Of a DNA stretch of 64,000 bases, positions 2,413 through 32,373 are shown one piece after another. This stretch comes from Escherichia coli. Its GTDB lineage: Bacteria > Pseudomonadota > Gammaproteobacteria > Enterobacterales > Enterobacteriaceae. Positions within the stretch are counted from its first letter, which is position 1. Every line of letters starts with the position of its first letter. The position numbers and the translations under genes are program-made. The notes below the pieces were generated by a model, which made no database searches, was not told where the DNA came from, and worked only from the letters and a program-made list of their open reading frames with translations. Location: NCBI RefSeq assembly GCF_003334355.1, contig NZ_QOWP01000017.1; one strand, given 5' to 3'.

Positions 2413-2416
2413 GGTT

Positions 2417-3396: not shown

Positions 3397-3462
3397 AACG
3401 GGAAGAATGCCGCCGGGTCATACCGGCGGCAATGTGACGATGAGGTGTCGGGAATGGCACAA

Positions 3463-5321: not shown

Positions 5322-5335
5322 GGTGTTTACTCCGT

Positions 5336-6114: not shown

Positions 6115-6117
6115 GCG

Positions 6118-6321
6118 TTACTCCCACAGATTGACAGTTTCAGCCACGGGCGCGGTCTGAACGTCGGGCAGTTCGACGGCGGTGCCGTGTGGCAGCACCG
6201 CACCCAGTTCAGCCAGTCCCGGATTTGCGGCGAGCACGGTCTCAACCACGCCCTCAGTGCGCCCGTAATACCGGACACAAATGGCGTCGAGCGTGTCGCC
6301 CTGTAGCGCAAAGGTCTTCAT
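6118..6321 (-). CDS. X: Tail protein gpX (LysM-like)
   Basis: Internal Met of track ORF gives 67-aa MKTFALQGDTLDAICVRYYGRTEGVVETVLAANPGL..., the size of P2 gpX. Confidence 0.85.
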   Translation of the reverse strand: MKTFALQGDTLDAICVRYYGRTEGVVETVLAANPGLAELGAVLPHGTAVELPDVQTAPVAETVNLWE

Positions 6322-6830: not shown

Positions 6831-6929
6831 GACTACCTCTGAAAAGTCGGGCGGTGGACGCCGGTGCAGTGTCAGGTGATTCACCCTCACTGACCGGCGT
6901 GCCGCCCTGGCGCGGGGCGCATTCGGTTG

Positions 6930-7673
6930 TTAACTGGCTTTTTTTTTCGGGCGTCCACGTTTTGCCGGTGTCACGCTCCGGATCTTACGCGGGGCGCGGG
7001 TGGCCGCTTTGGGCTGCGGCTCCGGCTTCGGTTTCAGTTCCCGCTCCAGTCGTTCAATCTCTTTTTTGACGCCTGCCTGACAGTCGAGCTGTGTCGCACG
7101 TTGCAGGTGAGCCAGCGCACCGGCGGCATCACCACCGTCACGCAAAAACAGACCGGTGATTTTGTGCAGCTTTGCGCGCACTTCATCAGGCATGTCAGCC
7201 GTGGCGGTCAGTTCAAGGGTCTCCGTCAGCAGGCGGGTATCCACAGACTCACCGGCAGCGTGAGCGCGCATGGCCGCAAGCGCCACCTCCTCGGTGAACA
7301 TGTACGGCGGGGTACGGCGGTGTTTACCCGGCATGGTCAGACCGTACTTCAGGGCATAACGGGCAATCTCCAGCGCACCGGCAATATCGCCGGTATCCAG
7401 ACGCCACAGCATGACCGTCATCAGAATGTCATCCTGTGCACCTTTGCCCTGCTCCAGCACGCCGTTCACCCACGGCAACCAGAACGGCAGCAGTTCGCGT
7501 TTTTTCGCGGCCTTCAGCTCTTTTGAATAAATCGCTTTCAGTGTGCGCTGGTCTGCGGCGAGCTTAACCAGCATCTGCTCATAGACAGTTGCATGTCGCA
7601 GCGGGGCGGCTTCCCGCTGCGCGGTCATCGCTGCCGAGACCCGCATCATGTGGCGCTGTGCGGGACTCGTCAT
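6930..7673 (-). CDS. M: Terminase small (endonuclease) subunit gpM
   Basis: ORF track 247 aa; recognised as P2 gpM family; synteny. Confidence 0.9.
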   Translation of the reverse strand: MTSPAQRHMMRVSAAMTAQREAAPLRHATVYEQMLVKLAADQRTLKAIYSKELKAAKKRELLPFWLPWVNGVLEQGKGAQDDILMTVMLWRLDTGDIAGALEIARYALKYGLTMPGKHRRTPPYMFTEEVALAAMRAHAAGESVDTRLLTETLELTATADMPDEVRAKLHKITGLFLRDGGDAAGALAHLQRATQLDCQAGVKKEIERLERELKPKPEPQPKAATRAPRKIRSVTPAKRGRPKKKAS

Positions 7674-7676
7674 CGG

Positions 7677-8750
7677 TTACGCTCCCGGCTCTGCGGTCGC
7701 TTTAGCCAGTGTGGAGAAATCACCGACCTTAATTTTTTCCACCAGACAACCGGCGGCGTAGTCTTCCACCACGTAATCAATGTTCATTGACTCGTAGTTC
7801 TCCACGCGGTCGAGTTTCGGGTTTTCCTCAATCACGCGGCGATGGCTGTCATCCATGTAGTAGATGGACAGGTTTTCCAGCTTTGTGATGAGCATCGCAT
7901 CCGCCGGGAAGTACGGGACGCGTACCGCCGGCAGGTTACCGATGCGTTTCTGGCTGATGATGACGTCAGCGGCCAGCATTTCGCTGTTGTCCTGCTCCTT
8001 GTTGACGATGGGAAAATACTTGTCCGCCAGTAGCTGACGTCCCACAATCACCACAAGGTCAGGGTCTTCCTGATACCACGGCTCAATCAGGTTGTTGGTC
8101 GCATCCATCACCAGTGCGTCAAGGCTGGCATAATCACCGCCCTTACCCACGCGGATAACCTCAGAGGTGGTGTGCCCTTCCTCGTCAGTAACCTTGCTCA
8201 TCACGCGCGCCGGGGCTTCATTGCGGTATTTCTGCAGCCAGCCGACCGCCACATCCTGCAGCATCGGATTGCTGCTGCGGTCAGAGGTTTCGGCACGCCT
8301 CACGCCGTTAAAACCGGCCATGATTAAATCAAGGGACTGGCGTTTGATAATGGCGTTACGGACACGGAGCTGGAAATCCTGATAACGCGCCCACAGGTCC
8401 AGCGTTTTGTAGCGGATATAAAAATCGAAGTTAATCTGGTCGCATTCGTACTTGTTTGACGCCAGCTTCGAGAAGTCCTTCGGCTGACGCTCGGTGCCAC
8501 CGGCGGTGTCGGTGGTGCTGGCGATAGAGCCGGTGACACCGATGCCAATTTTTTCCCCTTTCATTTCGCTGACCGGCACAATGTTGATGCGGGTCAGAAA
8601 GTCAGAGGACTCCTGCATGGTGTTCATCAGGGTCTGGGTGACCGACGGTTCAACGGTGAATTTTTTCGACACATCACCGGCGTCGATGCCGTTCAGTTCG
8701 GCAACACGGGACAGGTAGGCATTAAATTTAAAGCGGGTTTCCTGGCGCAT
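7677..8750 (-). CDS. N: Major capsid protein gpN
   Basis: ORF track 357 aa; recognised as P2 gpN family. Confidence 0.9.
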   Translation of the reverse strand: MRQETRFKFNAYLSRVAELNGIDAGDVSKKFTVEPSVTQTLMNTMQESSDFLTRINIVPVSEMKGEKIGIGVTGSIASTTDTAGGTERQPKDFSKLASNKYECDQINFDFYIRYKTLDLWARYQDFQLRVRNAIIKRQSLDLIMAGFNGVRRAETSDRSSNPMLQDVAVGWLQKYRNEAPARVMSKVTDEEGHTTSEVIRVGKGGDYASLDALVMDATNNLIEPWYQEDPDLVVIVGRQLLADKYFPIVNKEQDNSEMLAADVIISQKRIGNLPAVRVPYFPADAMLITKLENLSIYYMDDSHRRVIEENPKLDRVENYESMNIDYVVEDYAAGCLVEKIKVGDFSTLAKATAEPGA

Positions 8751-8808
8751 AGTTTTTCCTGAAATTAAGGGTTAATCGTGAAGGTTTTCCCGGACTGACT
8801 GACGCCGG

Positions 8809-9663
8809 TCAGCAGTTCGTCATCAGGGCGTCACCGCCACCACCGGTGGCCTTGCTGCGGCGCTGCTGGGTCAGACTTTCGGTGTGGTCGAGACTGTTTT
8901 TCAGGCGGGTGAATGCCTGGCTGGTTTCATCCGCCCTGTCAGTCACATCCTGCTTAAGTGCGGAAAAAGCGGTTTCCATCTCAGCGAGGCGCTGCTCAGT
9001 GGCGCTCAGTTTTTCCTGCACATGTTCAGCAACAGCGGTCACCGCTTCATGCACGTCATTCAGACGGGCGTCATCGCTGGCCTGTTTGCGGCCAAAAATG
9101 GACTTCACCTTTTCGGTCAGGGCGGTGAACACGGTTTCAGGCAGGTCTTCAAATTCCAGCTCAACGGGCGTTGCCACTGAAATCAGGTTTTCAGGGCTTA
9201 ATTTGAAGCGGTTCAGGGGGTTGTGTTTTGCCGTGCGGCAGAATTCCAGGTATTCCGTGCCGAGGCTTGCCGGGTCATCGGTGACGGCCAGACCCACCAG
9301 ATAACATTTGCCGGTATTGGCAAAGTTCGGCTGAATTTCCATTGAGGTATAGACCTTCTGCGCGGCCTTGTTCATCGCGATAAGGTCATCGGTCGGGGTG
9401 ATTTTCGCAAACAGCGCCCATTTGCCTTTCAGCGCCGAATCATCGTCAATCTTTTCGGCCTTCAGTTCGGCCACATCGCCATAACGCTTAAAAATACCGT
9501 CAGGCAGGATGCCGCGCAGATGTTCCAGGTTAATGCGGCAACCATAGACTCGCGGGTCAAAGGTTTCGGCCATTTCCTGAATATCCTGCGCACTGATGAC
9601 ACGCCCGTCACAGGTGTCACCCTCAACGCCGATACGAAAGAATTTTGAGACTTTTTTTGCCAT
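8809..9663 (-). CDS. O: Capsid scaffolding protein gpO
   Basis: Internal Met gives 284-aa MAKKVSKFFRIGVEGDTCDGRVISAQ..., the size of P2 gpO. Confidence 0.9.
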   Translation of the reverse strand: MAKKVSKFFRIGVEGDTCDGRVISAQDIQEMAETFDPRVYGCRINLEHLRGILPDGIFKRYGDVAELKAEKIDDDSALKGKWALFAKITPTDDLIAMNKAAQKVYTSMEIQPNFANTGKCYLVGLAVTDDPASLGTEYLEFCRTAKHNPLNRFKLSPENLISVATPVELEFEDLPETVFTALTEKVKSIFGRKQASDDARLNDVHEAVTAVAEHVQEKLSATEQRLAEMETAFSALKQDVTDRADETSQAFTRLKNSLDHTESLTQQRRSKATGGGGDALMTNC

Positions 9664-9836
9664 TGTCAGGAGTCCTGAATAGTGATTAGAGGAGTCACAT
9701 GTCGGCATCAGTTTCCCGACGATGCGCATCCTCCGCCATCAGTCCCGGATGGCTTATCACTGACACAACAGCACCTTAGCGAATCGCGGGGCGCGACTCA
9801 GTAGCCTTGCCGTGTATTCATCACGGCGAGGTATTC
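9664..9836. promoter_or_regulatory. Divergent late promoter region between O and P (Ogr-dependent in P2)
   Basis: Position between divergently transcribed late operons; from P2 biology, motif not pinpointed. Confidence 0.45.
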
Positions 9837-11609
9837 ATGACCATCACCACAGACACCACTCTTTTACACGACCCGCGTCGTCAGGCGGCGCTGCTGTACT
9901 GGCAGGGGTTTTCCGTGCCGCAGATTGCCGCCATGTTGCAGATGAAACGCCCGACGGTGCAGAGCTGGAAACAGCGCGACGGCTGGGACAGCGTTGCCCC
10001 CATCAGCCGTGTCGAAATGAGTCTGGAAGCGCGGCTGACCCAGCTCATCATCAAACCGCAGAAAACCGGCGGTGACTTCAAGGAAATTGACCTGCTGGGA
10101 CGCCAGATTGAACGGCTGGCGCGGGTCAACCGCTACAGTCAGACCGGCAACGAGGCAGACCTTAATCCGAACGTCGCTAACCGCAACAAAGGCGGGCGTC
10201 GCAAACCGAAAAAGAATTTTTTCAGTGACGAGGCCATCGAAAAGCTGGAGCAGATTTTCTTTGAGCAGTCTTTCGACTATCAGTTGCACTGGTATCGCGC
10301 CGGGCTTGAGCACCGCATCCGCGATATCCTGAAATCCCGCCAGATTGGCGCGACGTTTTATTTTTCCCGCGAGGCGCTGCTGCGCGCCCTGAAAACCGGT
10401 CATAACCAGATTTTTCTGTCGGCCAGTAAAACGCAGGCGTATGTGTTCCGCGAATACATCATCGCCTTTGCCCGGCTGGTTGACGTTGACCTGACCGGTG
10501 ACCCGATTGTCCTGGGCAATAACAGCGCAAAACTGATTTTTCTCGGCACCAACTCCAACACCGCGCAGAGCCATAACGGCGACCTGTACGTCGACGAGAT
10601 TTTCTGGATCCCGAATTTTCAGGTACTGCGTAAGGTGGCATCAGGTATGGCCTCACAGAGTCACCTGCGTTCGACCTATTTCTCCACCCCGTCCACGCTG
10701 GCGCACGACGCCTACCCGTTCTGGTCGGGTGAACTGTTTAACCGGGGACGCGCCAGCGCCGCCGAACGCGTGGAAATCGACGTCAGTCATAACGCCCTTG
10801 CCGGTGGACTTCTCTGTGCGGACGGCCAGTGGCGGCAGATTGTCACCATTGAGGACGCCCTGAAAGGCGGCTGCACGCTGTTCGACATTGAGCAGCTCAA
10901 ACGCGAAAACAGCGCCGACGATTTTAAAAACCTGTTCATGTGTGAATTTGTTGACGACAAGGCGTCGGTGTTCCCGTTCGAGGAGCTGCAACGCTGCATG
11001 GTCGACACGCTGGAAGAATGGGAAGACTATGCGCCGTTTGCCGCGAATCCGTTCGGCTCCCGCCCGGTATGGATTGGTTACGACCCGTCACACCGTGGCG
11101 ACAGCGCCGGATGCGTGGTACTGGCACCGCCGGTGGTAGCCGGTGGCAAATTCAGAATACTTGAGCGTCACCAGTGGAAAGGCATGGACTTTGCCACTCA
11201 GGCTGAATCCATCCGCAAACTCACCGAGAAATACAACGTCGAATACATCGGTATTGATGCCACCGGCCTCGGTGTCGGCGTGTTCCAGCTCGTGCGCTCG
11301 TTCTATCCCGCCGCACGCGACATCCGCTACACGCCGGAAATGAAAACCGCAATGGTGCTCAAGGCAAAAGACGTTATCCGCCGTGGCTGTCTGGAATATG
11401 ACGTCAGCGCCACCGACATCACCAGCTCGTTTATGGCTATCCGCAAGACCATGACCAGCAGCGGACGCAGCGCCACCTATGAGGCCAGCCGCAGCGAGGA
11501 AGCCAGCCACGCCGACCTCGCCTGGGCGACCATGCACGCCCTGTTAAATGAGCCACTCACCGCCGGTATCAGCACCCCGCTGACATCCACCATTCTGGAG
11601 TTTTACTGA
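9837..11609 (+). CDS. P: Terminase large (ATPase) subunit gpP
   Basis: Internal Met gives 590-aa MTITTDTTLLHDPRRQAALLYWQGF..., the size of P2 gpP. Confidence 0.9.
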   Translation: MTITTDTTLLHDPRRQAALLYWQGFSVPQIAAMLQMKRPTVQSWKQRDGWDSVAPISRVEMSLEARLTQLIIKPQKTGGDFKEIDLLGRQIERLARVNRYSQTGNEADLNPNVANRNKGGRRKPKKNFFSDEAIEKLEQIFFEQSFDYQLHWYRAGLEHRIRDILKSRQIGATFYFSREALLRALKTGHNQIFLSASKTQAYVFREYIIAFARLVDVDLTGDPIVLGNNSAKLIFLGTNSNTAQSHNGDLYVDEIFWIPNFQVLRKVASGMASQSHLRSTYFSTPSTLAHDAYPFWSGELFNRGRASAAERVEIDVSHNALAGGLLCADGQWRQIVTIEDALKGGCTLFDIEQLKRENSADDFKNLFMCEFVDDKASVFPFEELQRCMVDTLEEWEDYAPFAANPFGSRPVWIGYDPSHRGDSAGCVVLAPPVVAGGKFRILERHQWKGMDFATQAESIRKLTEKYNVEYIGIDATGLGVGVFQLVRSFYPAARDIRYTPEMKTAMVLKAKDVIRRGCLEYDVSATDITSSFMAIRKTMTSSGRSATYEASRSEEASHADLAWATMHALLNEPLTAGISTPLTSTILEFY

Positions 11610-12643
11610 TGAGCAAGAAAAAAGGGAAAACACCGCAACCTGCGGCAAAAAAAATGACCGCCAGCGCCCCGAAAATGGAGGCATTCACCTTTGGTGAGCC
11701 GGTGCCGGTACTCGACCGCCGTGACATTCTGGATTACGTCGAGTGCATCAGTAACGGCAGATGGTATGAGCCACCGGTCAGCTTTACCGGTCTGGCAAAA
11801 AGTCTGCGTGCTGCCGTGCATCACAGCTCACCGATTTACGTCAAACGTAATATTCTGGCCTCGACATTTATCCCGCATCCGTGGCTTTCCCAGCAGGATT
11901 TCAGCCGCTTTGTGCTGGATTTTCTGGTGTTCGGTAATGCGTTTCTGGAAAAGCGTTACAGCACCACCGGTAAGGTCATCAGACTGGAAACCTCACCGGC
12001 CAAATATACCCGTCGTGGCGTGGAGGAGGATGTTTACTGGTGGGTGCCGTCCTTCAACGAGCCGACAGCCTTCGCGCCCGGCTCCGTGTTTCATCTGCTG
12101 GAGCCTGATATTAATCAGGAGCTGTACGGCCTGCCGGAATATCTCAGCGCCCTTAACTCTGCCTGGCTGAATGAGTCGGCCACGCTGTTCCGCCGCAAGT
12201 ATTACGAAAACGGCGCACATGCCGGATACATCATGTACGTCACCGATGCCGTGCAGGACCGCAACGATATCGAAATGCTTCGCGAAAACATGGTGAAGTC
12301 GAAAGGCCGCAACAACTTTAAAAACCTGTTTCTCTATGCCCCGCAGGGGAAAGCCGACGGCATTAAAATTATCCCGCTCAGTGAAGTGGCGACGAAGGAC
12401 GATTTTTTTAATATCAAAAAAGCCAGCGCCGCTGACCTGCTGGACGCGCACCGCATCCCTTTTCAGTTGATGGGCGGCAAGCCGGAGAACGTCGGATCGC
12501 TGGGCGATATTGAGAAAGTGGCAAAGGTCTTTGTCCGCAATGAGCTTATCCCGCTACAGGACAGAATTCGGGAAATAAACGGCTGGCTCGGCCAGGAGGT
12601 CATCCGCTTTAAAAACTACTCACTGGAGACTGACAACGGCTGA
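11609..12643 (+). CDS. Q: Portal protein gpQ
   Basis: ORF track 344 aa MSKKKGKTPQPAAKKM...; recognised as P2 gpQ family. Confidence 0.9.
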   Translation: MSKKKGKTPQPAAKKMTASAPKMEAFTFGEPVPVLDRRDILDYVECISNGRWYEPPVSFTGLAKSLRAAVHHSSPIYVKRNILASTFIPHPWLSQQDFSRFVLDFLVFGNAFLEKRYSTTGKVIRLETSPAKYTRRGVEEDVYWWVPSFNEPTAFAPGSVFHLLEPDINQELYGLPEYLSALNSAWLNESATLFRRKYYENGAHAGYIMYVTDAVQDRNDIEMLRENMVKSKGRNNFKNLFLYAPQGKADGIKIIPLSEVATKDDFFNIKKASAADLLDAHRIPFQLMGGKPENVGSLGDIEKVAKVFVRNELIPLQDRIREINGWLGQEVIRFKNYSLETDNG

Positions 12644-12648
12644 ACATC

Positions 12649-12670
12649 GCCGCCTGCGGGCGGCTTTTTT
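12649..12670 (+). terminator. Intrinsic terminator after Q
   Basis: gccgcc-tgcg-ggcggc hairpin followed by T6 at 12665..12670, 5 nt after Q stop. Confidence 0.7.
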
Positions 12671-12812
12671 ACACCCCGCCATCACGCCCTCACACGCTCA
12701 TCACCGCACAAAAAATCCCGCAGACACACCAACGCCTCAACTGGCAGACTAAACGCCATCACGACGCGCTCAGACGCTGAAAAAATAAAATCAGCACCAC
12801 CGCCAGCGCGCA

Positions 12813-12831
12813 GTGCTTTCCCCGCCTCGCC
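12813..12831. other. cos: P2 cos site (19-nt cohesive end, joined in prophage)
   Basis: gtgctttccccgcctcgcc is the reverse complement of the P2 cohesive end GGCGAGGCGGGGAAAGCAC (from memory); lies between Q and A as expected. Confidence 0.85.
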
Positions 12832-13116
12832 CGCCCGCTTCATGGGGCGGTTTTAATGCAGTTGCATAGATACTATGGATCCGCACCAGTCCTGACCGCA
12901 CGCAGCCTGAACGGACATCCCCAACGCATGCAAAAACATTCACTTGTTGCATGCATAGCTTTTTAAGTACGCCATACCGCAACTGTACATTTTTAAGCAA
13001 TTGGCAACCTTAAAAAATTTACATTGCTTTCAAGACCTTATCATCCGTAGTCTCTGTTTTTTACTTTGAGCTACATCAATAAAATCTCAAACATGTTTAA
13101 TGCAAAGCCCTTGTTA

Positions 13117-13169
13117 CACAACATAGAATGTATGTCTAGAAACAACGACATACTATATGTTGTGTTTTT
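13117..13169 (+). terminator. Interrupted 15-bp stem-loop plus T5 (terminator-like or operator)
   Basis: cacaacata/tatgttgtg outer stem and tatgtc/gacata inner stem, 10-nt loop, then ttttt. Confidence 0.3.
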
Positions 13170-13231
13170 CCGGCTCTCTGTTCGGTGATATGCCAAATCA
13201 CTTTGCGTTTAAACAGAGCATTATTTCAGGG

Positions 13232-13246
13232 CAAGACTTCGCTCAA
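13232..13246. repeat. Direct repeat copy 1 (caagacttcgctcaa)
   Basis: Exact 15-mer also at 13496..13510. Confidence 0.9.
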
Positions 13247-13309
13247 AAGTCATTCCACCTAAGAAGCGCATATACCGGTGGAAGTTGCCCTCTACTTACA
13301 GGAGGCAAT

Positions 13310-13423
13310 ATGAAGAAATGCTATTACTGCATTCTCGTTCTGGCCCTCTTTGGCTATCCAAACGGTAGTCCGAGTGGTTTGTCAGTAAACGTCAGTAATA
13401 TCAATGTCAGCATTATGCTTTAA
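13310..13423 (+). CDS. Hypothetical small hydrophobic peptide (37 aa) in the P2 old/tin hotspot
   Basis: aggagg at 13300..13305, 4-nt spacer, ATG; MKKCYYCILVLALFGYPNGSPSGLSVNVSNINVSIML; terminator directly downstream. No homolog recognised. Confidence 0.4.
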   Translation: MKKCYYCILVLALFGYPNGSPSGLSVNVSNINVSIML

Positions 13424-13440
13424 TATGCTTCAAACAAAAA

Positions 13441-13465
13441 AACCACCTGCCAGGGTGGTTTTTTT
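13441..13465. terminator. Bidirectional intrinsic terminator
   Basis: accacc/ggtggt stem with A-run upstream (13434..13442) and T7 downstream (13459..13465). Confidence 0.65.
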
Positions 13466-13495
13466 GCGCCCATCATCAATACGATGAAAGACTGA

Positions 13496-13510
13496 CAAGA
13501 CTTCGCTCAA
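13496..13510. repeat. Direct repeat copy 2 (caagacttcgctcaa)
   Basis: Exact 15-mer identical to 13232..13246. Confidence 0.9.
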
Positions 13511-13725
13511 GACGAATTATGCGTCGACATAAGGTTACCCGCAATGATTTTATTAGACTAAATGGATGGCCTTTTATGACCCGGATCAAACGGCTGTCCT
13601 TACCGACATGCTAGTCACTCAATAGCATTTAGCCTTCTAATTCAGCATGCTATTGACCTTCTGCTGCCCCATAACTGCTCCGCATAAGCCATTCAATGCC
13701 ATATCAAATCACGTTGTATTTTTAC

Positions 13726-16002
13726 TCAAATTGGTAACGAGAACCCCGGCCACTCATCAGCAACCGGATACGTGAATTTTTTCCCGTCATAATTTACGGT
13801 CGCGCCACGCGCCAGCGCCTCAAGCTCCCATCGTTGCGGCCTGATACCGTTCTGAGCGAGGTCAACGCGGATACGGGTAATTTGCAATCGTTCAGACCTG
13901 GTCAGTCTGGCAGATGGTGCAATTTCATGCGGTTTTAACGGGATTCCGTTTCTTTGCTGACGATTTGGTGTTCTCAGTCCGTGTTTTAATGCGCCCCTGA
14001 GCGCCATCACGACCTCCGGGTCACTCCATTCGATAACACCGTCATCTACCAGATTAAGCACTGCTGCGGCGTGCTCAGAAGGTGTGGGAGCCGGTAACGA
14101 AGTATCACCACCGGTGAGCTTTCCACAGTTATTGACAGGACTCCGAGGCGCGGCGATGCCGCTTTTTAAAGTCAAAGGCTCAACGACCGGAACTTTCGGC
14201 ACAATGCGCCAGTCCGTCGTTCTGGTGATATGAATATGACGCGCGCCGAGATGCGGCGCGTAAATGCCGACCACTCTCTCGACTTCTTCCTCGTACTCGT
14301 TAACGTCATCCGACGGGCTACGGGCAACCCTGACAGTCTGACAATCGCGCGGGACATTTGCCCCACCCTGCGCGCTGATATACAACGCAAAATCACCACT
14401 GTCTGCAGCAGCGCGAGCAGCCTCGACGCGTTCGTCAAACTCATTAGCAATACTGACGCCGCGAGGCAATTTGCGTAGTTCACGGTAAGCCCCCATTGTC
14501 GGCAGGCCAACCGTTTTAAATTGCGGGATGCGCCACGTTGACGCCCATGCGGTAACAGCCGCCGCTGTGTCTTTCAGCGGTCTGCCGGTATCGTTATCGA
14601 GCTGACCATCCAGTGCATAGCCGTCGATGTTTTTTGAAATGTATTTCGCGATATATCCCGCAGCACCGCCCCGGTTAAGGTATTTTGCCTGAAAACGGTT
14701 TCGCGCGGCTCCTCTTTCGTCGCCATCCTCTTTGAGCGCATAGCGACGCATGATTTCGATAATCTGGTTGCGCTGGCGTGGATTACAAAAAAGCATCATA
14801 TGCCAGTGCGGCGTTCCGTCGTGGTGTGGCTCGACGACACGCAAACCGTAGGCCTGTAAATCATTATCCTTGAATGCCGTGCGCATCAGGCTCCAGATAC
14901 GGCAGAGATAACGCTGCGCATCCTTTGGATTAAATGCCTCATCGTTCCAGCCGTGATTAAGCTGAACGGTTTTACTTTCGCCTTTTCCGACCTGACGTGT
15001 CGGGTGATACTTTGACGGCGCGGTCAGCGTGATAAACATCCCCACATCACCCTCTGCGGCGGCGTAACGCTCAATACCGGCAATGGTGTTCATCAGCTCC
15101 ATCCGGCGAATTTCAGGATTAGAAATACTGCCCATCACCTTACTGATAAGGTCGATGCGCTCGCCGGTTTCCCTGTTTTCAAGGTCACACGATTTAAGAA
15201 ATTCCAGATTTGCCTGGCGGCGCGCACGCACATCACGAATGGCATGTTTACTGGCATAAGGAGAACGGTCTTTATTGACCTCCCCGACAGCAATCAGTAA
15301 CGCCTCATGCCAGCGCATACGCTGGCCTTTAAGCTGATGAGTCCACCACTCATCGTTAAACAGGCGGGCAATGGCAGAATATGCCTGCCTCGTGGTCATC
15401 TGTCCTTTACGGTATTTTTTCCAGTAGAGCGGGGAAATATTGAAAGCACGTGCAGCGCCAGCAACATGACCATAGAGGTGAGCCTGCGCCTCATCCGTAA
15501 ACAGCGATTCTTTTTCGCCATGTGCATCAACCCAGGCATCGCAGAGTTCCTCATACATCATGAAAAGCTGCGATGAGATACGGGCAGCAAACTTTTTCAG
15601 CTCCTTGTCATTCATTCCTGGCAGGCGCGCATAGTGGTCACGCTCTGCCAGAAACAGCAACGACGCGTCGGTGTTCATTTCATGGCGCTGATTCACACGC
15701 TCAATGCGCGGCCATAAACGACGCTGAAAAGTGGATGTGAGGAAATAAAACCCGTGCACCGGGCTTTTATTGCGCCGGATGTAGTCATAGCGTGAAGTAA
15801 ACAGCGAGCGCAAAAAGTAAGGCAGGCGGTTAATCGTGGATAAAACACCTTGCACCTGACGCATCTCGTCACGTGTAAGGGGTCTTTCGCGCCCGACAGC
15901 CTCGCGTGGCGCGTTCCATGCATAAGCACCGGTAAACGCCTTACCGGTGCCTGCGGCAAATGCTGACGGAGGGACAAAACGCCCGGAGGCTTTAACGGCC
16001 AT
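13726..16002 (-). CDS. A: Replication initiation protein gpA (rolling-circle nickase)
   Basis: ORF track 772 aa (track start is TTG at 16044); ATG at 16002 gives MAVKASGRFVPPSAF..., matching P2 gpA as recalled; start uncertain. Confidence 0.9.
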   Translation of the reverse strand: MAVKASGRFVPPSAFAAGTGKAFTGAYAWNAPREAVGRERPLTRDEMRQVQGVLSTINRLPYFLRSLFTSRYDYIRRNKSPVHGFYFLTSTFQRRLWPRIERVNQRHEMNTDASLLFLAERDHYARLPGMNDKELKKFAARISSQLFMMYEELCDAWVDAHGEKESLFTDEAQAHLYGHVAGAARAFNISPLYWKKYRKGQMTTRQAYSAIARLFNDEWWTHQLKGQRMRWHEALLIAVGEVNKDRSPYASKHAIRDVRARRQANLEFLKSCDLENRETGERIDLISKVMGSISNPEIRRMELMNTIAGIERYAAAEGDVGMFITLTAPSKYHPTRQVGKGESKTVQLNHGWNDEAFNPKDAQRYLCRIWSLMRTAFKDNDLQAYGLRVVEPHHDGTPHWHMMLFCNPRQRNQIIEIMRRYALKEDGDERGAARNRFQAKYLNRGGAAGYIAKYISKNIDGYALDGQLDNDTGRPLKDTAAAVTAWASTWRIPQFKTVGLPTMGAYRELRKLPRGVSIANEFDERVEAARAAADSGDFALYISAQGGANVPRDCQTVRVARSPSDDVNEYEEEVERVVGIYAPHLGARHIHITRTTDWRIVPKVPVVEPLTLKSGIAAPRSPVNNCGKLTGGDTSLPAPTPSEHAAAVLNLVDDGVIEWSDPEVVMALRGALKHGLRTPNRQQRNGIPLKPHEIAPSARLTRSERLQITRIRVDLAQNGIRPQRWELEALARGATVNYDGKKFTYPVADEWPGFSLPI

Positions 16003-16267
16003 ATGAGCCAAAAGCCTCTGAACAACGCCTGCTGAGTTGCTCAACCTGCGCGTTTAAATCAGCAAAAGACTTTGCGCTTCCGGTCAGAATATCGTGATGC
16101 ATCAGGCCGGAAACGAGCTGGCTTAATTTCGGATAATAACCAACCACCGCCAGCCATTCCTGACCGGCGTTTTTACCGCTTTCCGCTCTCTTTTTCTCGT
16201 GGAGAATAAACTGAAAGCTGTCACTGGTAACGACATAACGTTCGCCAATTTCAATACGAATACTCAT
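15992..16267 (-). CDS. P2 early-operon small protein (orf83-like)
   Basis: ORF track 91 aa; position just upstream of A. Confidence 0.6.
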   Translation of the reverse strand: MSIRIEIGERYVVTSDSFQFILHEKKRAESGKNAGQEWLAVVGYYPKLSQLVSGLMHHDILTGSAKSFADLNAQVEQLSRRCSEAFGSYGR

Positions 16268-16488
16268 GCCGTTCTCCGGTAATGTTTGTTTTTTGCTTCA
16301 AAGACTGACTGGCAGGAAACACAACGCGTGGCTGACGGATAAGCCGCACGACGGGCAGCAGGTATTGGCGCGTCACACTCTTCGCAAACCAGCGCAGAAG
16401 CACCGCAATGTTTTACCCTTGCCGCGTTAATCTGACGCTCCAGTAATTCAGCCTGTTGTTCCTGAATAAAATCCACGTTGTCCGGCAT
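16264..16488 (-). CDS. DksA/TraR-type C4 zinc-finger protein (P2 orf82-like)
   Basis: ORF track 74 aa with CxxC...CxxC (CEECDAPIP...CVSC). Confidence 0.75.
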   Translation of the reverse strand: MPDNVDFIQEQQAELLERQINAARVKHCGASALVCEECDAPIPAARRAAYPSATRCVSCQSVFEAKNKHYRRTA

Positions 16489-16793
16489 TACCAGCTCCTT
16501 TTGTCGTTAAGTTTTTTAAATTCATCAGCGCAATAGCTGGCAATTTCTGTCGTTAATTTCGTCAGTTCATCCACGGAGGAGATTTGCTTGTGAAATACAG
16601 CGCGTTTAACAAGTAAATTGACCACATCAGACAGGATATTTAATTCATTCTGATAAATCGCGATAACAGACTCAGTTATTTCGCGTTTTTCTTTATCAAG
16701 ACCAAGTTGAATAAGAGATAGATCGCCATTTTTCATAACGGTGATTTTTAAGGCGTTATTCAGTAATACAACTGAACGAGAACAGGACATCAA
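16488..16793 (-). CDS. Hypothetical early-operon protein, AT-rich
   Basis: ORF track 101 aa, K/N/I-rich, visibly lower GC than flanking genes; start and stop overlap neighbours. Confidence 0.55.
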
Positions 16794-17014
16794 AGCACCT
16801 CCCCGCGAGACAATCCGATATTGTGAAATTTTTCCGACTCCTGACTGAGCAGCTCGACTATCTCTACGCGGGATAACTCCGCCTTTGTGATGTGTCGAAT
16901 CATGGCGTCAAGATGAGAAGAAAAGCGCGTCGCTGCATCGGCCTGTGCTTCGGTTCTGGCCTGTTGCAGCAGTAATGCGTATTTACCGCACTGATTTTCA
17001 GAAACTGTATGCAT
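16790..17014 (-). CDS. Hypothetical early-operon protein (orf80-like)
   Basis: Track ORF 85 aa; ATG at 17014 preceded by ggaga. Confidence 0.55.
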
Positions 17015-17077
17015 GACTTTCTCCAGGCAAAAAGAAGCCCCGCACAATTAAGTGCGTTAAAAACTCTGGTTAATTAC

Positions 17078-17584
17078 TTAATGCAGATATTGCTCTGGTT
17101 TTACCGACGTCAGAATTGTCGGTGCATACTCAAACAGGCTGAATAATTCACGTAATGCACGGAATAAAGCATCACGCCAGTAACATGATTCTTCATTAAT
17201 TCGCCAGTATGGCTGGTTGAATTCTTTTTCAGTCAATCCGGCATGCATAAATAAAGTACGACGCTGACTGACTGTTAAAAAACTAATATATGCATACTCA
17301 CTTGCGCCAACCTGACGGCGTTTTGAGAATGCCCCACGCAATTCATCAATTGCACAAACCAGCCGTTCACGTTCGACGTCGTTCATTTCTTCAAAACGCA
17401 TCGTTGCGTGACGTTGTTTTAACTGCGCATGAAAGCAAACTGTTAGCCGTTCGCGCTCCATCATCTGATTATAATAATCACATGTATCCTGCCAGCGAGG
17501 GACGGCCAGATGCTTACCAATTATCCGGCGCATAGCTGCTGGCTGTTTTTCAACGAGATTGAGCGTCATCACTGTCATTTCCAT
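17078..17584 (-). CDS. B: Replication protein gpB (helicase loader)
   Basis: ORF track 168 aa ...MTVMTLNLVEKQPAAMRRIIGKHLAVPRWQDTCDYY...; recognised as P2 gpB family. Confidence 0.85.
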   Translation of the reverse strand: MEMTVMTLNLVEKQPAAMRRIIGKHLAVPRWQDTCDYYNQMMERERLTVCFHAQLKQRHATMRFEEMNDVERERLVCAIDELRGAFSKRRQVGASEYAYISFLTVSQRRTLFMHAGLTEKEFNQPYWRINEESCYWRDALFRALRELFSLFEYAPTILTSVKPEQYLH

Positions 17585-17772
17585 ACCCTCCGGCTTTTCA
17601 GAAAGGTCAGAGCCTTTTTTAACGGACTCTGTTTTTTGGTGCGGATAATGATTCCCTTACGCCCCTTACCGTGGGTGATGGTGAAGTCAATCGCCCTGGG
17701 GCTTTCGTTACGCAGTAACTGCGCAATACAACGCGGCTCATTCATAATCACAACCCCATCCACAAAAGCCAT
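17575..17772 (-). CDS. Small early protein between cox and B (orf78-like)
   Basis: ORF track 65 aa; position. Confidence 0.5.
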   Translation of the reverse strand: MAFVDGVVIMNEPRCIAQLLRNESPRAIDFTITHGKGRKGIIIRTKKQSPLKKALTFLKSRRVWK

Positions 17773-18020
17773 GCATCACGCTGTTCAACCGGTCGGTTAT
17801 AAAACGCCTCACGTACAGCGCGATTAAACTCTGGAATGAAAACCCATTTCTCACCGGCGCGGGCCTTCGGCTTATTTGGATCTCGAAGCTCGATAACCGG
17901 TAGCTTGTTAGCCTTTATCATTTCTGTAACTGCGGTTTTTGGTTTACCCAATAAATCTGCAAACTTTTCCGCATGTACCGCATCAAGCGGGTACTTAATC
18001 ACATAATCATTAACTTCCAT
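17748..18020 (-). CDS. cox: Cox (excisionase / switch regulator)
   Basis: ORF track 90 aa MEVNDYVIKYPLDAVHAEKFADLLGKPKTAVTEMIKANKLPVIE...; divergent from C. Confidence 0.85.
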   Translation of the reverse strand: MEVNDYVIKYPLDAVHAEKFADLLGKPKTAVTEMIKANKLPVIELRDPNKPKARAGEKWVFIPEFNRAVREAFYNRPVEQRDAWLLWMGL

Positions 18021-18155
18021 CTATGTTACCCTCATAGGATCCAGCCCCTTAAAAACCGCTTGGAACCGTTTAAGCGGCGCTGGACTCACGCCCGAAAAGG
18101 TTCTGGATTAATGACCTTTTCGGGGAATATAGTCATTAAGTCAGGACTATGTCAA
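18021..18155. promoter_or_regulatory. Immunity switch region (Pe/Pc promoters and operators)
   Basis: Intergenic between divergent cox and C; from P2 biology, sites not pinpointed. Confidence 0.5.
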
Positions 18156-18449
18156 ATGAATATCGCACAGAAATTAAGAGCAATAAGACAATCGGAAGGG
18201 CTAACTCAAGCAAAATTCAGTGAAATCAGCGGCATAGCGTTAGGAACGCTAAAGAATTACGAAGGAGGCCATCAAGACCCTGGCATCCAAGTTGTGTTGC
18301 AGGTCACCAATGCACCTCAGTTCCAAAAATACACACTATGGCTCATGACAGATAAAACAGCGCCGGAAGCGGGACAAATCGCACCGGCTCTCGCGCACAG
18401 TGGGCCAGAGTCAACAGAATCCAACCACTCCGCGAAAAGGATTGGCTAA
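18156..18449 (+). CDS. C: Immunity repressor C
   Basis: Internal ATG at 18156 gives 97 aa MNIAQKLRAIRQSEGLTQAKFSEISGIALGTLKNYEGG... (HTH), C-terminal half like P2 C as recalled. Confidence 0.8.
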   Translation: MNIAQKLRAIRQSEGLTQAKFSEISGIALGTLKNYEGGHQDPGIQVVLQVTNAPQFQKYTLWLMTDKTAPEAGQIAPALAHSGPESTESNHSAKRIG

Positions 18450-18518
18450 CTCTATATAAAAATTACATTTTCACCATTTGCCACCAAGATGGTGAATACA
18501 GCGCCGGAGGGCTTTCTT

Positions 18519-19499
18519 ATGGCAATTAAGAAGCTCGATGATGGTCGCTATGAAGTGGACATTAGACCTCGCGGTCGCGACGGAAAACGCATCCGCAGGA
18601 AATTTGAAAGAAAAGCTGAAGCACTAGCATTTGAGCGATACACAATCGCCAATGCCAGTCAGAAAGAATGGGGAGGCCAGCGAGCAGACCGCCGAACTTT
18701 GACAGAATTGCTCGACATCTGGTGGAAATACCACGGGCAAAACCACGAGCATGGGACAAAAGAGTTTAATCATCTGCTCAAAACCATCAGCGGCATAGGT
18801 GATATACCAGTGAGTCGGATGAACAAAAGGGCTTTGATGGATTATCGCTCCATGCGACTACGTGATGGCATCAGTGCTGCAACGATAAACCGCGACATGT
18901 ACCGATTATCCGGCATGTTCACAAAATTAATTCAATTGGATGAATTTTCCGGGCAACACCCAATTCACGGACTGCCGCCACTGACGGAGGCTAACCCTGA
19001 AATGACGTTCCTGGAAAAAGCAGAAATCGAAAAACTGCTAAATGTTTTGACTGGTGATGACTTACTTGTCGCGCTTTTATGTCTGAGCACTGGAGGAAGG
19101 TGGACGGAAGTTGCCACACTAAAACCAGCACAGATTACAAGTTGCAGGGTTACCTTCCTGAAAACCAAAAACGGTAAAAAGCGAACAGTGCCGATTTCTG
19201 AGGAACTGGAGAAAAAAGTTAAAGAGGAGGCCAGCGCCAAATTGTTCAAGGTAGATTATGAGAAGTTTTGCGGGATTTTACGCAGAGTGAAACCTGATAT
19301 ACCTCCCAATCAGGCAACCCACATTCTGCGGCATACATTCGCAAGCCATTTCATGATGAATGGGGGCAACATAATTGCACTGCAACAGATTCTGGGGCAT
19401 GCGAGCATTCAGCAGACAATGACCTATGCGCACCTTGCGCCTGACTACCTGCAGAACGCCGTCGCTCTGAATCCACTAAAAGGCGGAGTGACGTTATAA
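18519..19499 (+). CDS. int: Tyrosine integrase (P2 Int family)
   Basis: Internal Met gives MAIKKLDDGRYEVDIRPRGRDGKRIRRKFERK..., like P2 Int N-terminus; C-terminal catalytic region ...HILRHTFASHFMMNGGNIIALQQILGHASIQQTMTYAHL. Confidence 0.9.
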   Translation: MAIKKLDDGRYEVDIRPRGRDGKRIRRKFERKAEALAFERYTIANASQKEWGGQRADRRTLTELLDIWWKYHGQNHEHGTKEFNHLLKTISGIGDIPVSRMNKRALMDYRSMRLRDGISAATINRDMYRLSGMFTKLIQLDEFSGQHPIHGLPPLTEANPEMTFLEKAEIEKLLNVLTGDDLLVALLCLSTGGRWTEVATLKPAQITSCRVTFLKTKNGKKRTVPISEELEKKVKEEASAKLFKVDYEKFCGILRRVKPDIPPNQATHILRHTFASHFMMNGGNIIALQQILGHASIQQTMTYAHLAPDYLQNAVALNPLKGGVTL

Positions 19500-19513
19500 A
19501 TTTCCCCTCTGAG

Positions 19514-19532
19514 TGTCCACATAGTGTCCACA
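19514..19532. promoter_or_regulatory. Integrase arm-type binding sites (two direct TGTGGACA repeats on the minus strand)
   Basis: tgtccaca at 19514..19521 and 19525..19532, 11-bp phasing, just after int stop; TGTGGACA is the P2 Int arm motif from memory. Confidence 0.55.
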
Positions 19533-19617
19533 CTCAAGAAATTTTGAAACCGCTCCAGACCCTTACAGCTTTCGATAAATGACTGTTTTTACTATTGATT
19601 GCATGTAAGTGATTGAT

Positions 19618-22411: not shown

Positions 22412-22505
22412 TTTGTAGGCAGGATAAGGCGTTTACGCCGCATCCGGCATTTGAGCAGGATGCCTGATGCGACGCTGATAGCGTCTTATCAGGCCTACAC
22501 TCCGG
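22412..22505. repeat. REP element pair
   Basis: gcctgatgcgacgctg...cgtcttatcaggcctac type palindromic units after cpxA. Confidence 0.7.
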
Positions 22506-28269: not shown

Positions 28270-31282
<3,013 letters not shown>

Positions 31283-31289
31283 ACACTGC

Positions 31290-31520
31290 CGGATGCGGCG
31301 CGAGCGCCTTATCCGGCCTACGGGTCGGCAACAGTTGTAGGCCTGATAAGACGCGACAGCGTCGCATCAGGCATTGATTGCCGGATGCGGCACAAGTGCC
31401 TTATCCGGCCTACAGGTCGGCAATAGTTGTAGGCCTGATAAGACGCGACAGCGTCGCATCAGGCATTGATTGCCGGATGCGGCGCGAGCGCCTTATCCGG
31501 CCTACGGGTCGTGCATCCGA
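31290..31520. repeat. BIME/REP cluster with ~98-bp unit repeated about 2.5 times
   Basis: gccggatgcggcgcgagcgccttatccggcctacgggtcggcaacagttgtaggcctgataagacgcgacagcgtcgcatcaggcattgatt repeated with few substitutions. Confidence 0.85.
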
Positions 31521-31548
31521 CAACACCGAATTTACAGGAACACAGAAC

Positions 31549-32373
31549 ATGCAAAACATTACTCAGTCCTGGTTTGTCCAGGGAATGATCAAAGCCACCA
31601 CCGACGCCTGGCTGAAAGGCTGGGATGAGCGCAACGGCGGCAACCTGACGCTACGCCTGGATGACGCCGATATCGCACCATATCACGACAATTTCCACCA
31701 ACAACCGCGCTATATCCCGCTCAGCCAGCCCATGCCTTTACTGGCAAATACACCGTTTATTGTCACCGGCTCGGGCAAATTCTTCCGTAACGTCCAGCTT
31801 GATCCTGCGGCTAACTTAGGCATCGTAAAAGTCGACAGCGACGGCGCGGGCTACCACATTCTTTGGGGGTTAACCAACGAAGCCGTCCCCACTTCCGAAC
31901 TTCCGGCTCACTTCCTTTCCCACTGCGAGCGCATTAAAGCCACCAACGGCAAAGATCGGGTGATCATGCACTGCCACGCCACCAACCTGATCGCCCTCAC
32001 CTATGTACTTGAAAACGACACCGCGGTCTTCACTCGCCAACTGTGGGAAGGCAGCACCGAGTGTCTGGTGGTATTCCCGGATGGCGTTGGCATTTTGCCG
32101 TGGATGGTGCCCGGCACGGACGAAATCGGCCAGGCGACCGCACAAGAGATGCAAAAACATTCGCTGGTGTTGTGGCCCTTCCACGGCGTCTTCGGCAGCG
32201 GACCGACGCTGGATGAAACCTTCGGTTTAATCGACACCGCAGAAAAATCAGCACAAGTATTAGTGAAGGTTTATTCGATGGGCGGCATGAAACAGACCAT
32301 CAGCCGTGAAGAGTTGATAGCGCTCGGCAAGCGTTTCGGCGTTACGCCACTCGCCAGTGCGCTGGCGCTGTAA
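31549..32373 (+). CDS. rhaD: Rhamnulose-1-phosphate aldolase RhaD
   Basis: Internal ATG at 31549 gives 274 aa [39 protein letters not shown]...; upstream part of track ORF is REP sequence. Confidence 0.95.

What the first reader, a model, noticed from the sequence alone, without database searches (positions are those of the whole stretch)
31283..31548. BIME cluster between rhaA and rhaD with a near-perfect ~98-bp tandem duplication
Seen: a composite REP unit is repeated about 2.5 times with only a few substitutions. This is an expected repeat class in E. coli, but copy number here is a strain-variable feature and the palindromes can mislead ORF callers (the 331-aa track ORF upstream of rhaD starts inside it).
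Basis: partly seen in the sequence, partly recalled or inferred. Interest (0 to 1): 0.2.

Follow-up and report, generated by a model that had tools for sequence, protein, structure and literature searches.

The report
Ordinary REP/BIME-2 repeat between rhaA and rhaD
The spacer between the rhamnose genes rhaA and rhaD holds five copies of E. coli's common palindromic "REP" repeat, a shorter version of an array already catalogued in strain K-12; it is real and varies between strains, but it is ordinary.

Summary
The 266-bp rhaA–rhaD spacer (31283-31548) contains a tandem array with a period of 92 bp, not about 98 bp. It has 2.4 copies, and the two full units match at 87 of 92 positions. It consists of five REP palindromes in alternating orientation: Y, Z2, Y, Z2, Y. 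That makes it a BIME-2 array.

It is an allele of the element catalogued in K-12 as REP299a-i, which has nine REPs in a 450-bp spacer. Two other complete genomes carry it base for base.

In 116 sampled complete E. coli genomes the site holds 1, 3, 5, 7, 9 or 11 REPs, in 92-bp steps. A seventh allele has one Y REP followed by a different GC-rich palindrome. Genomes whose flanks are 100% identical to the window's carry 1, 3, 5, 7 or 9 REPs, so the array changes faster than its flanks.

The 331-aa ORF is a mechanical in-frame extension of rhaD. It is not coding.

Likely roles are the generic ones for this repeat class. It probably forms mRNA hairpins inside the rhaBAD transcript, with the first one 5 nt after the rhaA stop codon. 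It is probably also a DNA gyrase site, since cleavage is published for the K-12 allele. No function was tested here.

Verdict: already known, low interest.

The parts
30023..31282 (+). rhaA (L-rhamnose isomerase) CDS; stop codon TAA at 31280-31282
   Evidence: ORF listed. A 100%-identical stretch in strain H2 is annotated rhaA.
31283..31287 (+). 5-nt spacer ACACT between the rhaA stop and the first REP; the same in all 15 E. coli alleles read
   Evidence: Sequence; allele comparison.
31288..31321 (+). Y-type REP no. 1, variant 'a': GCCGGATGCGGCGCGAGCGCCTTATCCGGCCTAC
   Evidence: REP tail motif found. Predicted hairpin of -21.3 kcal/mol.
31322..31336 (.). 15-nt tail-to-tail linker, GGGTCGGCAACAGTT
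31337..31372 (-). Z2-type REP no. 1, inverted: GCCTGATGCGACGCTGTCGCGTCTTATCAGGCCTAC on the - strand
   Evidence: Pattern match with 0 mismatches, against 0.00 expected by chance.
31373..31379 (.). 7-nt head-to-head linker ATTGATT; its last two bases plus the first base of the next REP form the TTG that starts the spurious 331-aa ORF
31380..31413 (+). Y-type REP no. 2, variant 'b': GCCGGATGCGGCACAAGTGCCTTATCCGGCCTAC. It differs from variant 'a' by a compensatory pair in the inner stem, seen when unit 1 is compared with unit 2 (unit-1 positions 31300 G>A and 31305 C>T), and by one loop base (31302)
31414..31428 (.). 15-nt tail-to-tail linker, AGGTCGGCAATAGTT
31429..31464 (-). Z2-type REP no. 2, inverted; identical to Z2 no. 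1
31465..31471 (.). 7-nt head-to-head linker, ATTGATT
31472..31505 (+). Y-type REP no. 3, variant 'a'; identical to REP no. 1
31506..31548 (+). Unique 43-nt leader of rhaD, with Shine-Dalgarno AGGA at 31536-31539, 9 nt before the ATG
   Evidence: Sequence. No promoter-like or terminator-like site in 30900-31900.
31549..32373 (+). rhaD (rhamnulose-1-phosphate aldolase), 274 aa
   Evidence: RefSeq annotation of identical DNA. Protein alignments to other genera start at residue 1.
31378..32373 (+). Mechanical 331-aa ORF: rhaD plus 57 in-frame codons read through REPs 3-5; not a gene
   Evidence: The repeat unit of 92 nt is not a multiple of 3, so alleles with other copy numbers would change the frame. 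No homology upstream of the ATG in other genera.

Best explanation
This is a BIME-2 array, a tandem run of E. coli's Y and Z2 repetitive extragenic palindromes in alternating orientation. It sits in the rhaA–rhaD spacer inside the rhaBAD operon. It is a five-REP allele of the element catalogued in K-12 as REP299a-i, which has nine REPs.

Shown here:
- The anatomy and the family.
- Identity with alleles in other genomes.
- Alleles that differ by whole 92-bp Y+Z2 units. The window equals K-12 minus two internal units.
- Copy number varying among genomes whose flanks are identical.

Inferred origin of the variation: unit gain and loss by unequal recombination or replication slippage between the direct repeats, or by the REP-associated transposase TnpA-REP.

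Inferred function, from what is established for the class. No terminator or promoter lies in the spacer, so the array is transcribed as part of the operon mRNA. There its hairpins would hinder 3'-to-5' exonucleases and so stabilise the upstream rhaBA segment. The first hairpin starts 5 nt after the rhaA stop codon, so it may also stall terminating ribosomes. On DNA the array is a binding and cleavage site for DNA gyrase; this is published for the K-12 allele. The exact copy number is probably under little constraint.
For: Anatomy: period 92, 2.4 copies; five REPs with their linkers.

Family: Rfam RF02564, a model of Y/Z2 units of the BIME-2 called REP325, matches full length at 77 and 76.6 bits against a gathering score of 59.5. 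BIME-2 is defined as y plus z2 REPs in tandem copies with short linkers, with copy number variable between strains (PMC3333891).

K-12 homologue: the spacer is 450 bp with 9 REPs. It is named REP299a-i, within rhaBAD (bioRxiv 10.1101/2024.07.17.603846). It is listed as a BIME-2 of 401 bp with 4, 2, 1 and 0 gyrase cleavage sites under four conditions (PMC6379681 Table DS3).

Alleles: 1 to 11 REPs in 92-bp steps in 116 genomes. Genomes with 100%-identical flanks carry 1, 3, 5, 7 or 9 REPs. The window's allele is identical in strain PRO_A-1028-6W-A_ESBL over 666 nt and in strain H2 over 601 nt.

RNA level: no promoter-like or terminator-like site. The fold z-score is -8.2. Single REP hairpins are -20 to -21 kcal/mol and the Y:Z2 long hairpin is -52.2 kcal/mol. 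A REP fewer than 16 nt from a stop codon can reduce translation (Liang et al. 2015, as summarised in PMC12306157). The spacer ACACT followed by a Y REP is present in all 15 alleles read.

Other genera: 50 of 54 other Enterobacteriaceae species have a stable hairpin in this spacer, and in 41 it starts within 15 nt of the rhaA stop, although the repeat families differ.
Against: No functional measurement exists for this locus at the RNA level. The stabiliser and ribosome-stalling roles are extrapolated from other operons.

Copy number ranges from 1 to 11, and IS1397 interrupts the single REP in strain IAI39. Four of 54 species have no hairpin at all. All of this fits an array that is largely dispensable.

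The cross-genus hairpin count has no control set of other intra-operon spacers.

Gyrase cleavage at the K-12 allele is modest, 4 sites against 35 at the strongest BIME-2, and was not measured for a five-REP allele.

Some copy numbers in public assemblies could be collapsed by short-read assembly.
Confidence: 0.93

Rival explanations
1. It is a purely selfish or neutral repeat. The array would be a tolerated population of REP doublets (REPINs) maintained by the REP-associated transposase and by recombination. It would have no selected role in rha expression, and its copy number would simply drift.
For: Copy number runs from 1 to 11 REPs across strains and varies on identical flanks. An IS1397 insertion into the REP is tolerated in IAI39. 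A different palindromic element replaces most of the array in about 13% of genomes. Four of 54 enterobacterial species have a short, unstructured spacer.
Against: All 15 E. coli alleles read keep one Y REP exactly 5 nt after the rhaA stop. Unrelated palindrome families occupy the same spot in 50 of 54 other species. That pattern suggests either selection for a hairpin there or a strong insertion preference. The compensatory G:C to A:T change keeps the Y hairpin intact. This rival concerns function only and does not dispute what the element is.
Confidence: 0.35
2. It is a gene for nucleoid-associated small RNAs of the naRNA4 type. Those are HU-binding RNAs made from Y/Z2 units of REP325 that help condense the chromosome.
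For: Rfam RF02564 (naRNA4) matches at 31432-31502 and 31340-31410 with 77 and 76.6 bits, above the gathering score of 59.5. naRNA4 is itself a Y-linker-Z2 unit of a BIME-2 (PMC4550694).
Against: The above-threshold matches are on the - strand, antisense to the rhaBAD transcript. No promoter-like site was found on either strand. On the transcribed strand the scores are 56.5 and 53.2, below threshold. The match reflects shared repeat family rather than shared function; any BIME-2 unit would score.
Confidence: 0.04
3. The upstream in-frame sequence is a real N-terminal extension, so RhaD would be 331 aa and the repeat would be coding.
For: An uninterrupted in-frame ORF runs from TTG 31378 to the rhaD stop.
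Against: The repeat unit is 92 nt, which is not a multiple of 3, so alleles differing by one unit would shift the frame. RefSeq annotates 274 aa in every genome inspected. A Shine-Dalgarno AGGA lies 9 nt before ATG 31549. RhaD alignments to other genera begin at residue 1, and the upstream DNA is unrelated between genera.
Confidence: 0.01
4. It is an assembly or sequencing artefact, that is, a falsely duplicated segment.
For: Tandem repeats are prone to mis-assembly.
Against: The identical five-REP allele occurs in independent complete genomes. The same length classes recur across many independent assemblies, for example 450 bp in 22 genomes and 174 bp in 14, including eight O157:H7 strains.
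Confidence: 0.01

Closest known systems
REP299a-i, the BIME-2 array between rhaA and rhaD of E. coli K-12 (EcoCyc name; listed as a BIME-2 in Sutormin et al. 2019, Table DS3)
   Same: Same chromosomal site, same flanks, same Y and Z2 REPs, same 15-nt and 7-nt linkers, same first and last units.
   Different: The window has 5 REPs in a 266-bp spacer, against 9 REPs in 450 bp. It lacks two internal 92-bp units of K-12.
REP325 / naRNA4 (Rfam RF02564), the BIME-2 between yjdM and yjdN
   Same: Same repeat family (Y-linker-Z2 units). The covariance model matches full length at 77 bits (PMC4550694).
   Different: Different locus. The matches above threshold lie on the strand antisense to the operon. 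REP325 has extra 'U' spacers between units. No evidence here for a discrete HU-binding RNA.
REP mRNA stabilisers and translation-stalling REPs, as described for 3'-terminal and intercistronic REPs (Newbury et al. 1987; Liang, Rudd and Deutscher 2015, both as cited in PMC12306157)
   Same: REP hairpins lie inside a polycistronic transcript, and the first begins 5 nt after the upstream stop codon, within the published limit of fewer than 16 nt.
   Different: The effect has not been measured for rhaBAD. Here the element is an array of five REPs rather than one or two.
REPIN/RAYT systems: REP doublets mobilised by the domesticated transposase TnpA-REP
   Same: Adjacent inverted Y and Z2 REPs can pair into one long hairpin of -52.2 kcal/mol. 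The K-12 array is reported as predicted to be RAYT-associated. TnpA-REP cleaves and recombines BIMEs in vitro.
   Different: No transposase gene was looked for in the window. Plain homologous recombination or slippage between 92-bp repeats explains the alleles equally well.

Membership tests
REP (E. coli repetitive extragenic palindrome) | Imperfect palindrome of 30-40 nt able to form a hairpin | tested here: met
   Five units of 34 nt (Y) or 36 nt (Z2). Predicted hairpins are -20.0 to -21.4 kcal/mol with one mismatch in the stem.
REP (E. coli repetitive extragenic palindrome) | Conserved GTAG/CTAC tetranucleotide at the foot of the palindrome | tested here: met
   Each unit ends in GGCCTAC, or starts with GTAGGCC when inverted. 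Definition from PMC3333891.
REP (E. coli repetitive extragenic palindrome) | Extragenic location and many copies per genome | tested here: met
   The array lies between the rhaA stop and the rhaD start. Five further REPs occur elsewhere in the window. A query containing the region hits a median of 9 places per E. coli genome.
BIME-2 | Made of y and z2 REPs in alternating (inverse) orientation | tested here: met
   The order is Y>, Z2<, Y>, Z2<, Y>. It matches the Y/Z2 covariance model RF02564 over its full length.
BIME-2 | Short linkers (motif S between the REPs; s, l or r on the flanks) rather than the long IHF-binding L linker of BIME-1 | tested here: inconclusive
   The linkers are short, 15 nt tail-to-tail and 7 nt head-to-head. 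They were not compared with the published S, s, l and r consensus sequences, which were not available to me.
BIME-2 | Multiple tandem copies, with copy number differing between strains at one locus | tested here: met
   The window has 2.4 units. The site holds 1 to 11 REPs in 116 genomes.
BIME-2 | Bound and cleaved by DNA gyrase in vivo | not testable with these tools
   Published for the K-12 allele only: 4, 2, 1 and 0 cleavage sites with ciprofloxacin, rifampicin plus ciprofloxacin, microcin and oxolinic acid respectively (PMC6379681 Table DS3).
naRNA4 (Rfam RF02564) | Score at or above the family's gathering threshold on the strand that is transcribed | tested here: not met
   The - strand scores 77 and 76.6 bits, above 59.5, but it is antisense to rhaBAD and no promoter-like site was found. 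The + strand scores 56.5 and 53.2 bits, below threshold.
naRNA4 (Rfam RF02564) | A discrete RNA that binds HU and condenses DNA | not testable with these tools
   No expression or binding data are available here.
Translation-regulating REP (Liang et al. 2015 criterion) | REP begins fewer than 16 nt after the stop codon of the upstream gene | tested here: met
   The stop ends at 31282 and the REP stem starts at 31288, leaving 5 nt. The criterion is taken from the summary in PMC12306157. The effect on RhaA was not tested.
Intrinsic (Rho-independent) terminator | GC-rich hairpin followed by a run of T | tested here: not met
   No terminator-like site in 30900-31900 on either strand.
REPIN/RAYT | A cognate REP-associated tyrosine transposase gene in the same genome | not tested
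   Only 64 kb of the genome is available, and I did not search it for tnpA-REP.

The most novel reading that the evidence does not exclude
The number of Y+Z2 units at this site could act as a heritable, rapidly mutable dial. By changing how strongly the spacer protects upstream mRNA and stalls ribosomes, it would set the ratio of RhaB/RhaA to RhaD made from one transcript. The strain differences of 1 to 11 REPs would then be adaptive tuning of rhamnose catabolism rather than drift.
Probability: 0.07. Interest if true: 0.45.

Novelty: already known. Interest (0 to 1): 0.08.

Why it matters
It matters little beyond housekeeping. The element is a catalogued repeat at a catalogued site.

Practical points:
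- Naive longest-ORF callers will extend rhaD by 57 codons into the repeat.
- The 92-bp units can collapse or expand in assemblies.
- The site is a convenient length-polymorphic marker, with about seven common alleles.

The only biological lead is modest. One hairpin a few nucleotides after the rhaA stop is kept in every E. coli allele read. Unrelated palindromes occupy the same position in most other Enterobacteriaceae. This makes the rha operon a reasonable test case for what intercistronic REPs do.

Tried and rejected
- My first degenerate REP pattern caught only the two Z2 units because Y has a shorter inner stem. A tail-motif search found all five.
- The repeat finder reported no inverted repeats, although the region is full of imperfect palindromes. 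This is a limit of gap-free seed extension, not evidence of absence.
- My first REP classifier labelled Z2 units as Y, and a later Y regex missed the Y units. In both cases I read the types from the printed sequences.
- I tried to identify the source strain. Strain H2 is identical around rha but colinear only from window position 19615 on, and it carries IS1 insertions and a 12-kb deletion. Strain Ecol_224 matches the prophage/cpxP junction perfectly but carries the 241-bp rha allele. Neither is the source.
- Two primary papers are not in the held library: Liang et al. 2015 (PMC4427526) and the rha operon sequence paper, Moralejo et al. 1993 (PMC206615). I cite the former only through a later paper's summary. 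My recollection that the latter noted REPs here is unverified.
- A search for 'REP299' gave only one relevant paper.
- RefSeq NC_000913.3, as held here, carries no repeat_region feature at this site.
- Two weak Rfam matches (Termite-flg, mir-1992; E about 0.9) were dismissed as chance.

Full report
**What is in the sequence**

The finding's coordinates, 31283-31548, are exactly the spacer between two genes. The ORF ending at 31282 (stop TAA at 31280-31282) is rhaA. The ATG at 31549 starts rhaD. This follows from the ORF list and from RefSeq annotation of matching E. coli genomes.

Tandem Repeats Finder reports one array at 31287-31511 with period 92, 2.4 copies, 93% matches, no indels and score 415. 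The repeat finder gives the same 92-nt register. The two full units match at 87 of 92 positions. The partial third unit matches the first at 41 of 41. Otherwise the description is right.

**Anatomy**

The spacer runs as follows:

| Coordinates | Element |
|---|---|
| 31283-31287 | ACACT |
| 31288-31321 | Y REP |
| 31322-31336 | 15-nt linker |
| 31337-31372 | inverted Z2 REP |
| 31373-31379 | 7-nt linker |
| 31380-31413 | Y REP |
| 31414-31428 | 15-nt linker |
| 31429-31464 | inverted Z2 REP |
| 31465-31471 | 7-nt linker |
| 31472-31505 | Y REP |
| 31506-31548 | 43-nt unique leader, with a Shine-Dalgarno AGGA 9 nt before the rhaD ATG |

The first and third Y REPs are identical, and so are the two Z2 REPs. 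The middle Y differs from the others by a loop base and by a compensatory pair in the inner stem. Comparing unit 1 with unit 2, position 31300 changes G to A and 31305 changes C to T. This converts a G:C pair into A:T and keeps the hairpin.

Each REP alone folds at -20 to -21 kcal/mol. An adjacent Y and Z2 can instead pair into one long hairpin of -52.2 kcal/mol. The whole spacer folds at -142.6 kcal/mol, z = -8.2. No promoter-like or terminator-like site lies between 30900 and 31900.

**Family**

Published definitions describe BIME-2 as tandem copies of y and z2 REPs in inverse orientation with short linkers. Copy number differs between loci and between strains (PMC3333891). The array fits this.

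An independent check comes from Rfam family RF02564 (naRNA4). Its model was built from Y-linker-Z2 units of another BIME-2, REP325. It matches full length at 31432-31502 and 31340-31410 with 77 and 76.6 bits, against a gathering score of 59.5 (PMC4550694). These matches are on the strand antisense to the operon. On the transcribed strand the scores are 56.5 and 53.2, below threshold. I therefore read them as family resemblance, not as evidence for a small-RNA gene.

**It is a known element**

In K-12 MG1655 the same spacer is 450 bp and holds nine REPs. The first unit, the last Y and the leader are identical to the window. The window equals K-12 minus two internal 92-bp units.

A preprint names the K-12 array REP299a-i, after EcoCyc. 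It notes that this is the only one of its eight stress-responsive REP regions that lies inside an operon (10.1101/2024.07.17.603846).

Sutormin et al. list 'rhaA>-rhaD>' as a BIME-2 of 401 bp. They report 4, 2, 1 and 0 gyrase cleavage sites under ciprofloxacin, rifampicin plus ciprofloxacin, microcin and oxolinic acid (PMC6379681 Table DS3). That is a modest signal next to 35 sites at the strongest BIME-2.

The window's exact allele is found base for base in strain PRO_A-1028-6W-A_ESBL over 666 nt and in strain H2 over 601 nt.

**Strain variation**

I searched all complete E. coli genomes with two queries made only of the rhaA and rhaD flanks, and read the spacer length from the span of each joined match. 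The two systematic samples give 116 distinct genomes.

| Spacer length (bp) | Content | Genomes |
|---|---|---|
| 82 or 92 | 1 REP | 27 |
| 174, 176 or 184 | 3 REPs | 23 |
| 263, 266 or 276 | 5 REPs | 22 |
| 358 | 7 REPs | 3 |
| 450 or 460 | 9 REPs | 25 |
| 542 | 11 REPs | 1 |
| 241 | 1 Y REP plus a different element | 15 |

- I read representatives of all 13 spacer lengths.
- The arrays always begin and end with a Y REP and change by whole Y+Z2 units.
- The lengths ending in +10 carry a variant leader.
- Genomes with 100%-identical flanks carry 1, 3, 5, 7 or 9 REPs. Copy number therefore changes faster than the flanks accumulate substitutions.
- All 15 alleles read keep ACACT plus a Y REP directly after the rhaA stop.

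Caveats: the samples are systematic, not exhaustive. Some assemblies may have collapsed repeats.

**Other genera**

A degenerate pattern for the RhaD motif WDERNGGNL brought in 120 loci from the species-representative genome collection. In 54 Enterobacteriaceae species I could delimit the rhaA–rhaD spacer, which ranges from 24 to 466 nt.

- E. coli-type REPs occur there in Citrobacter, Salmonella enterica subsp. arizonae, Escherichia sp. ESNIH1, Superficieibacter and others.
- Enterobacter, Pseudocitrobacter and relatives have instead a long palindrome of the CCCTCACCCC...GGGTGAGGG type.
- Fifty of the 54 have a stable predicted hairpin, and in 41 it begins within 15 nt of the rhaA stop.

This is suggestive of either a selected hairpin or a favoured landing site. 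I have no control set of other spacers, so I do not weigh it heavily.

**How it most likely works**

Shown:
- The anatomy and the family.
- Unit-wise allele differences.
- Absence of a terminator or promoter in the spacer.
- A 5-nt distance from the stop codon to the first hairpin.

Inferred from the class:
- The array is transcribed within the rhaBAD mRNA.
- REP hairpins slow 3'-to-5' exonucleases and so protect upstream message.
- REPs fewer than 16 nt from a stop codon can stall the terminating ribosome and lower output of the upstream gene (Newbury 1987 and Liang 2015, as summarised in PMC12306157).
- On DNA, BIME-2 arrays are gyrase sites, published for the K-12 allele.
- Unit gain and loss is most simply unequal recombination or slippage between 92-bp direct repeats. 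TnpA-REP, which cleaves and recombines BIMEs in vitro, is an alternative.

None of the RNA-level effects has been measured for rha. The wide copy-number range, the IS insertion in IAI39 and the four species with no hairpin all allow the array to be mostly dispensable.

**The ORF remark**

The 331-aa ORF (31378-32373) starts at a TTG formed by the last two bases of a linker and the first base of the second Y REP. It is in frame with rhaD. It is not coding:
- The 92-nt unit is not a multiple of three.
- RefSeq annotates 274 aa in every genome inspected.
- A Shine-Dalgarno precedes ATG 31549.
- Homology to other genera starts at residue 1 of RhaD, with unrelated DNA upstream.

**Verdict**

This is a correct and careful first-stage observation of an ordinary, already catalogued repeat. 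Novelty: already known. Interest: low.

Noticed in passing
window 1-19614: The first 19.6 kb is a P2-like prophage ending next to cpxP. Matching genomes annotate a phage integrase, Cox, a replication endonuclease, P2-family capsid, terminase, tail and lysis genes. The junction segment 17000-20500 is present at 80% coverage or more in 717 of 5,426 complete E. coli genomes.
   Followed up: partly
window 22415-22498 (cpxA–yiiM spacer); L137 20901-22290: The window has an intact pair of REPs here, an inverted Y-like unit plus a Z2. In strain Ecol_224 an IS621 (IS110 family) sits inside the tail of the Z2 REP (…CTTATCAGGCCT | IS621 | …ACACTCC). This fits the published REP specificity of IS621.
   Followed up: partly
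L013 1484-3000 (E. coli IAI39 rhaA–rhaD spacer): IS1397 is inserted in the loop of the single Y REP, with AGC repeated on both sides of the IS (GCGGCGCGAGC | IS1397 | AGCGCCTTATCC). This is the known target preference of the element, seen at the very site under study.
   Followed up: yes
L011 201-441 (strain JML285); also Ecol_224, L137 31059-31299: About 13% of sampled genomes (15 of 116) have a 241-bp spacer. One Y REP is followed by a roughly 150-nt GC-rich palindrome of another family (…CACCCTCACCCCGGCCCTCTCCC…GGGAGAGGGTTAGGGTGAGGGG…; whole spacer folds at -124 kcal/mol). The same kind of element fills the rhaA–rhaD spacer in Enterobacter and Pseudocitrobacter. From memory it resembles the 'boxC' repeat; I did not verify the name.
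   Followed up: partly
L009 201-376 (strain Ec-042-T5-MAC): The third REP of this three-REP allele is a chimera. It has Y-type outer stems (GCCGGATG…CTTATCCGGCCTAC) around a Z2-type inner stem-loop (CGACGCTGTCGCG). This suggests recombination or gene conversion between neighbouring Y and Z2 units.
   Followed up: no
L139 321-862 (E. coli O55:H7 DEC5E): This is the longest array seen: 11 REPs in a 542-bp spacer. The related O55:H7 strain DEC5D has 450 bp, and eight sampled O157:H7 strains have 174 bp, so copy number differs widely within one lineage.
   Followed up: partly
L022 3256-3721 (Superficieibacter electus): The rhaA–rhaD spacer is 466 nt. It holds one E. coli-like Y REP followed by about eight same-orientation copies of a second REP type with a period near 50 nt. 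This architecture differs from the alternating E. coli array.
   Followed up: no
window 45703-45800: A BIME-1-like element lies downstream of fdhE. It has a short Z1-type REP (GCCTGATGCGCTGCGCTTATCAGGCCTAC), a 35-nt AT-rich linker, then an inverted Y REP. The long linker is where BIME-1 elements usually carry an IHF site; I did not test this.
   Followed up: no
window 62227-62260 and 55335-55355: There is a solitary Y REP at 62227-62260 and an exact GGGAGAGGGTTAGGGTGAGGG motif on the - strand at 55335-55355. The motif has the same core as the palindrome in the 241-bp rha allele.
   Followed up: no
window 38276, 47332 and 50335-62339, compared with strain H2 (L015/L016): Strain H2 shares the window's rha allele. 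Relative to the window it has extra DNA annotated as IS1 at the first two positions. It also lacks the 12 kb at 50335-62339, the yihO-yihW region, where it has IS1A next to a truncated transporter gene.
   Followed up: partly
window 31089-31367 (-) and 31410-31559 (-): Two further mechanical ORFs, of 92 and 49 aa on the - strand, run through the REP array. Like the 331-aa ORF, they are products of the stop-poor GC-rich palindromes.
   Followed up: no
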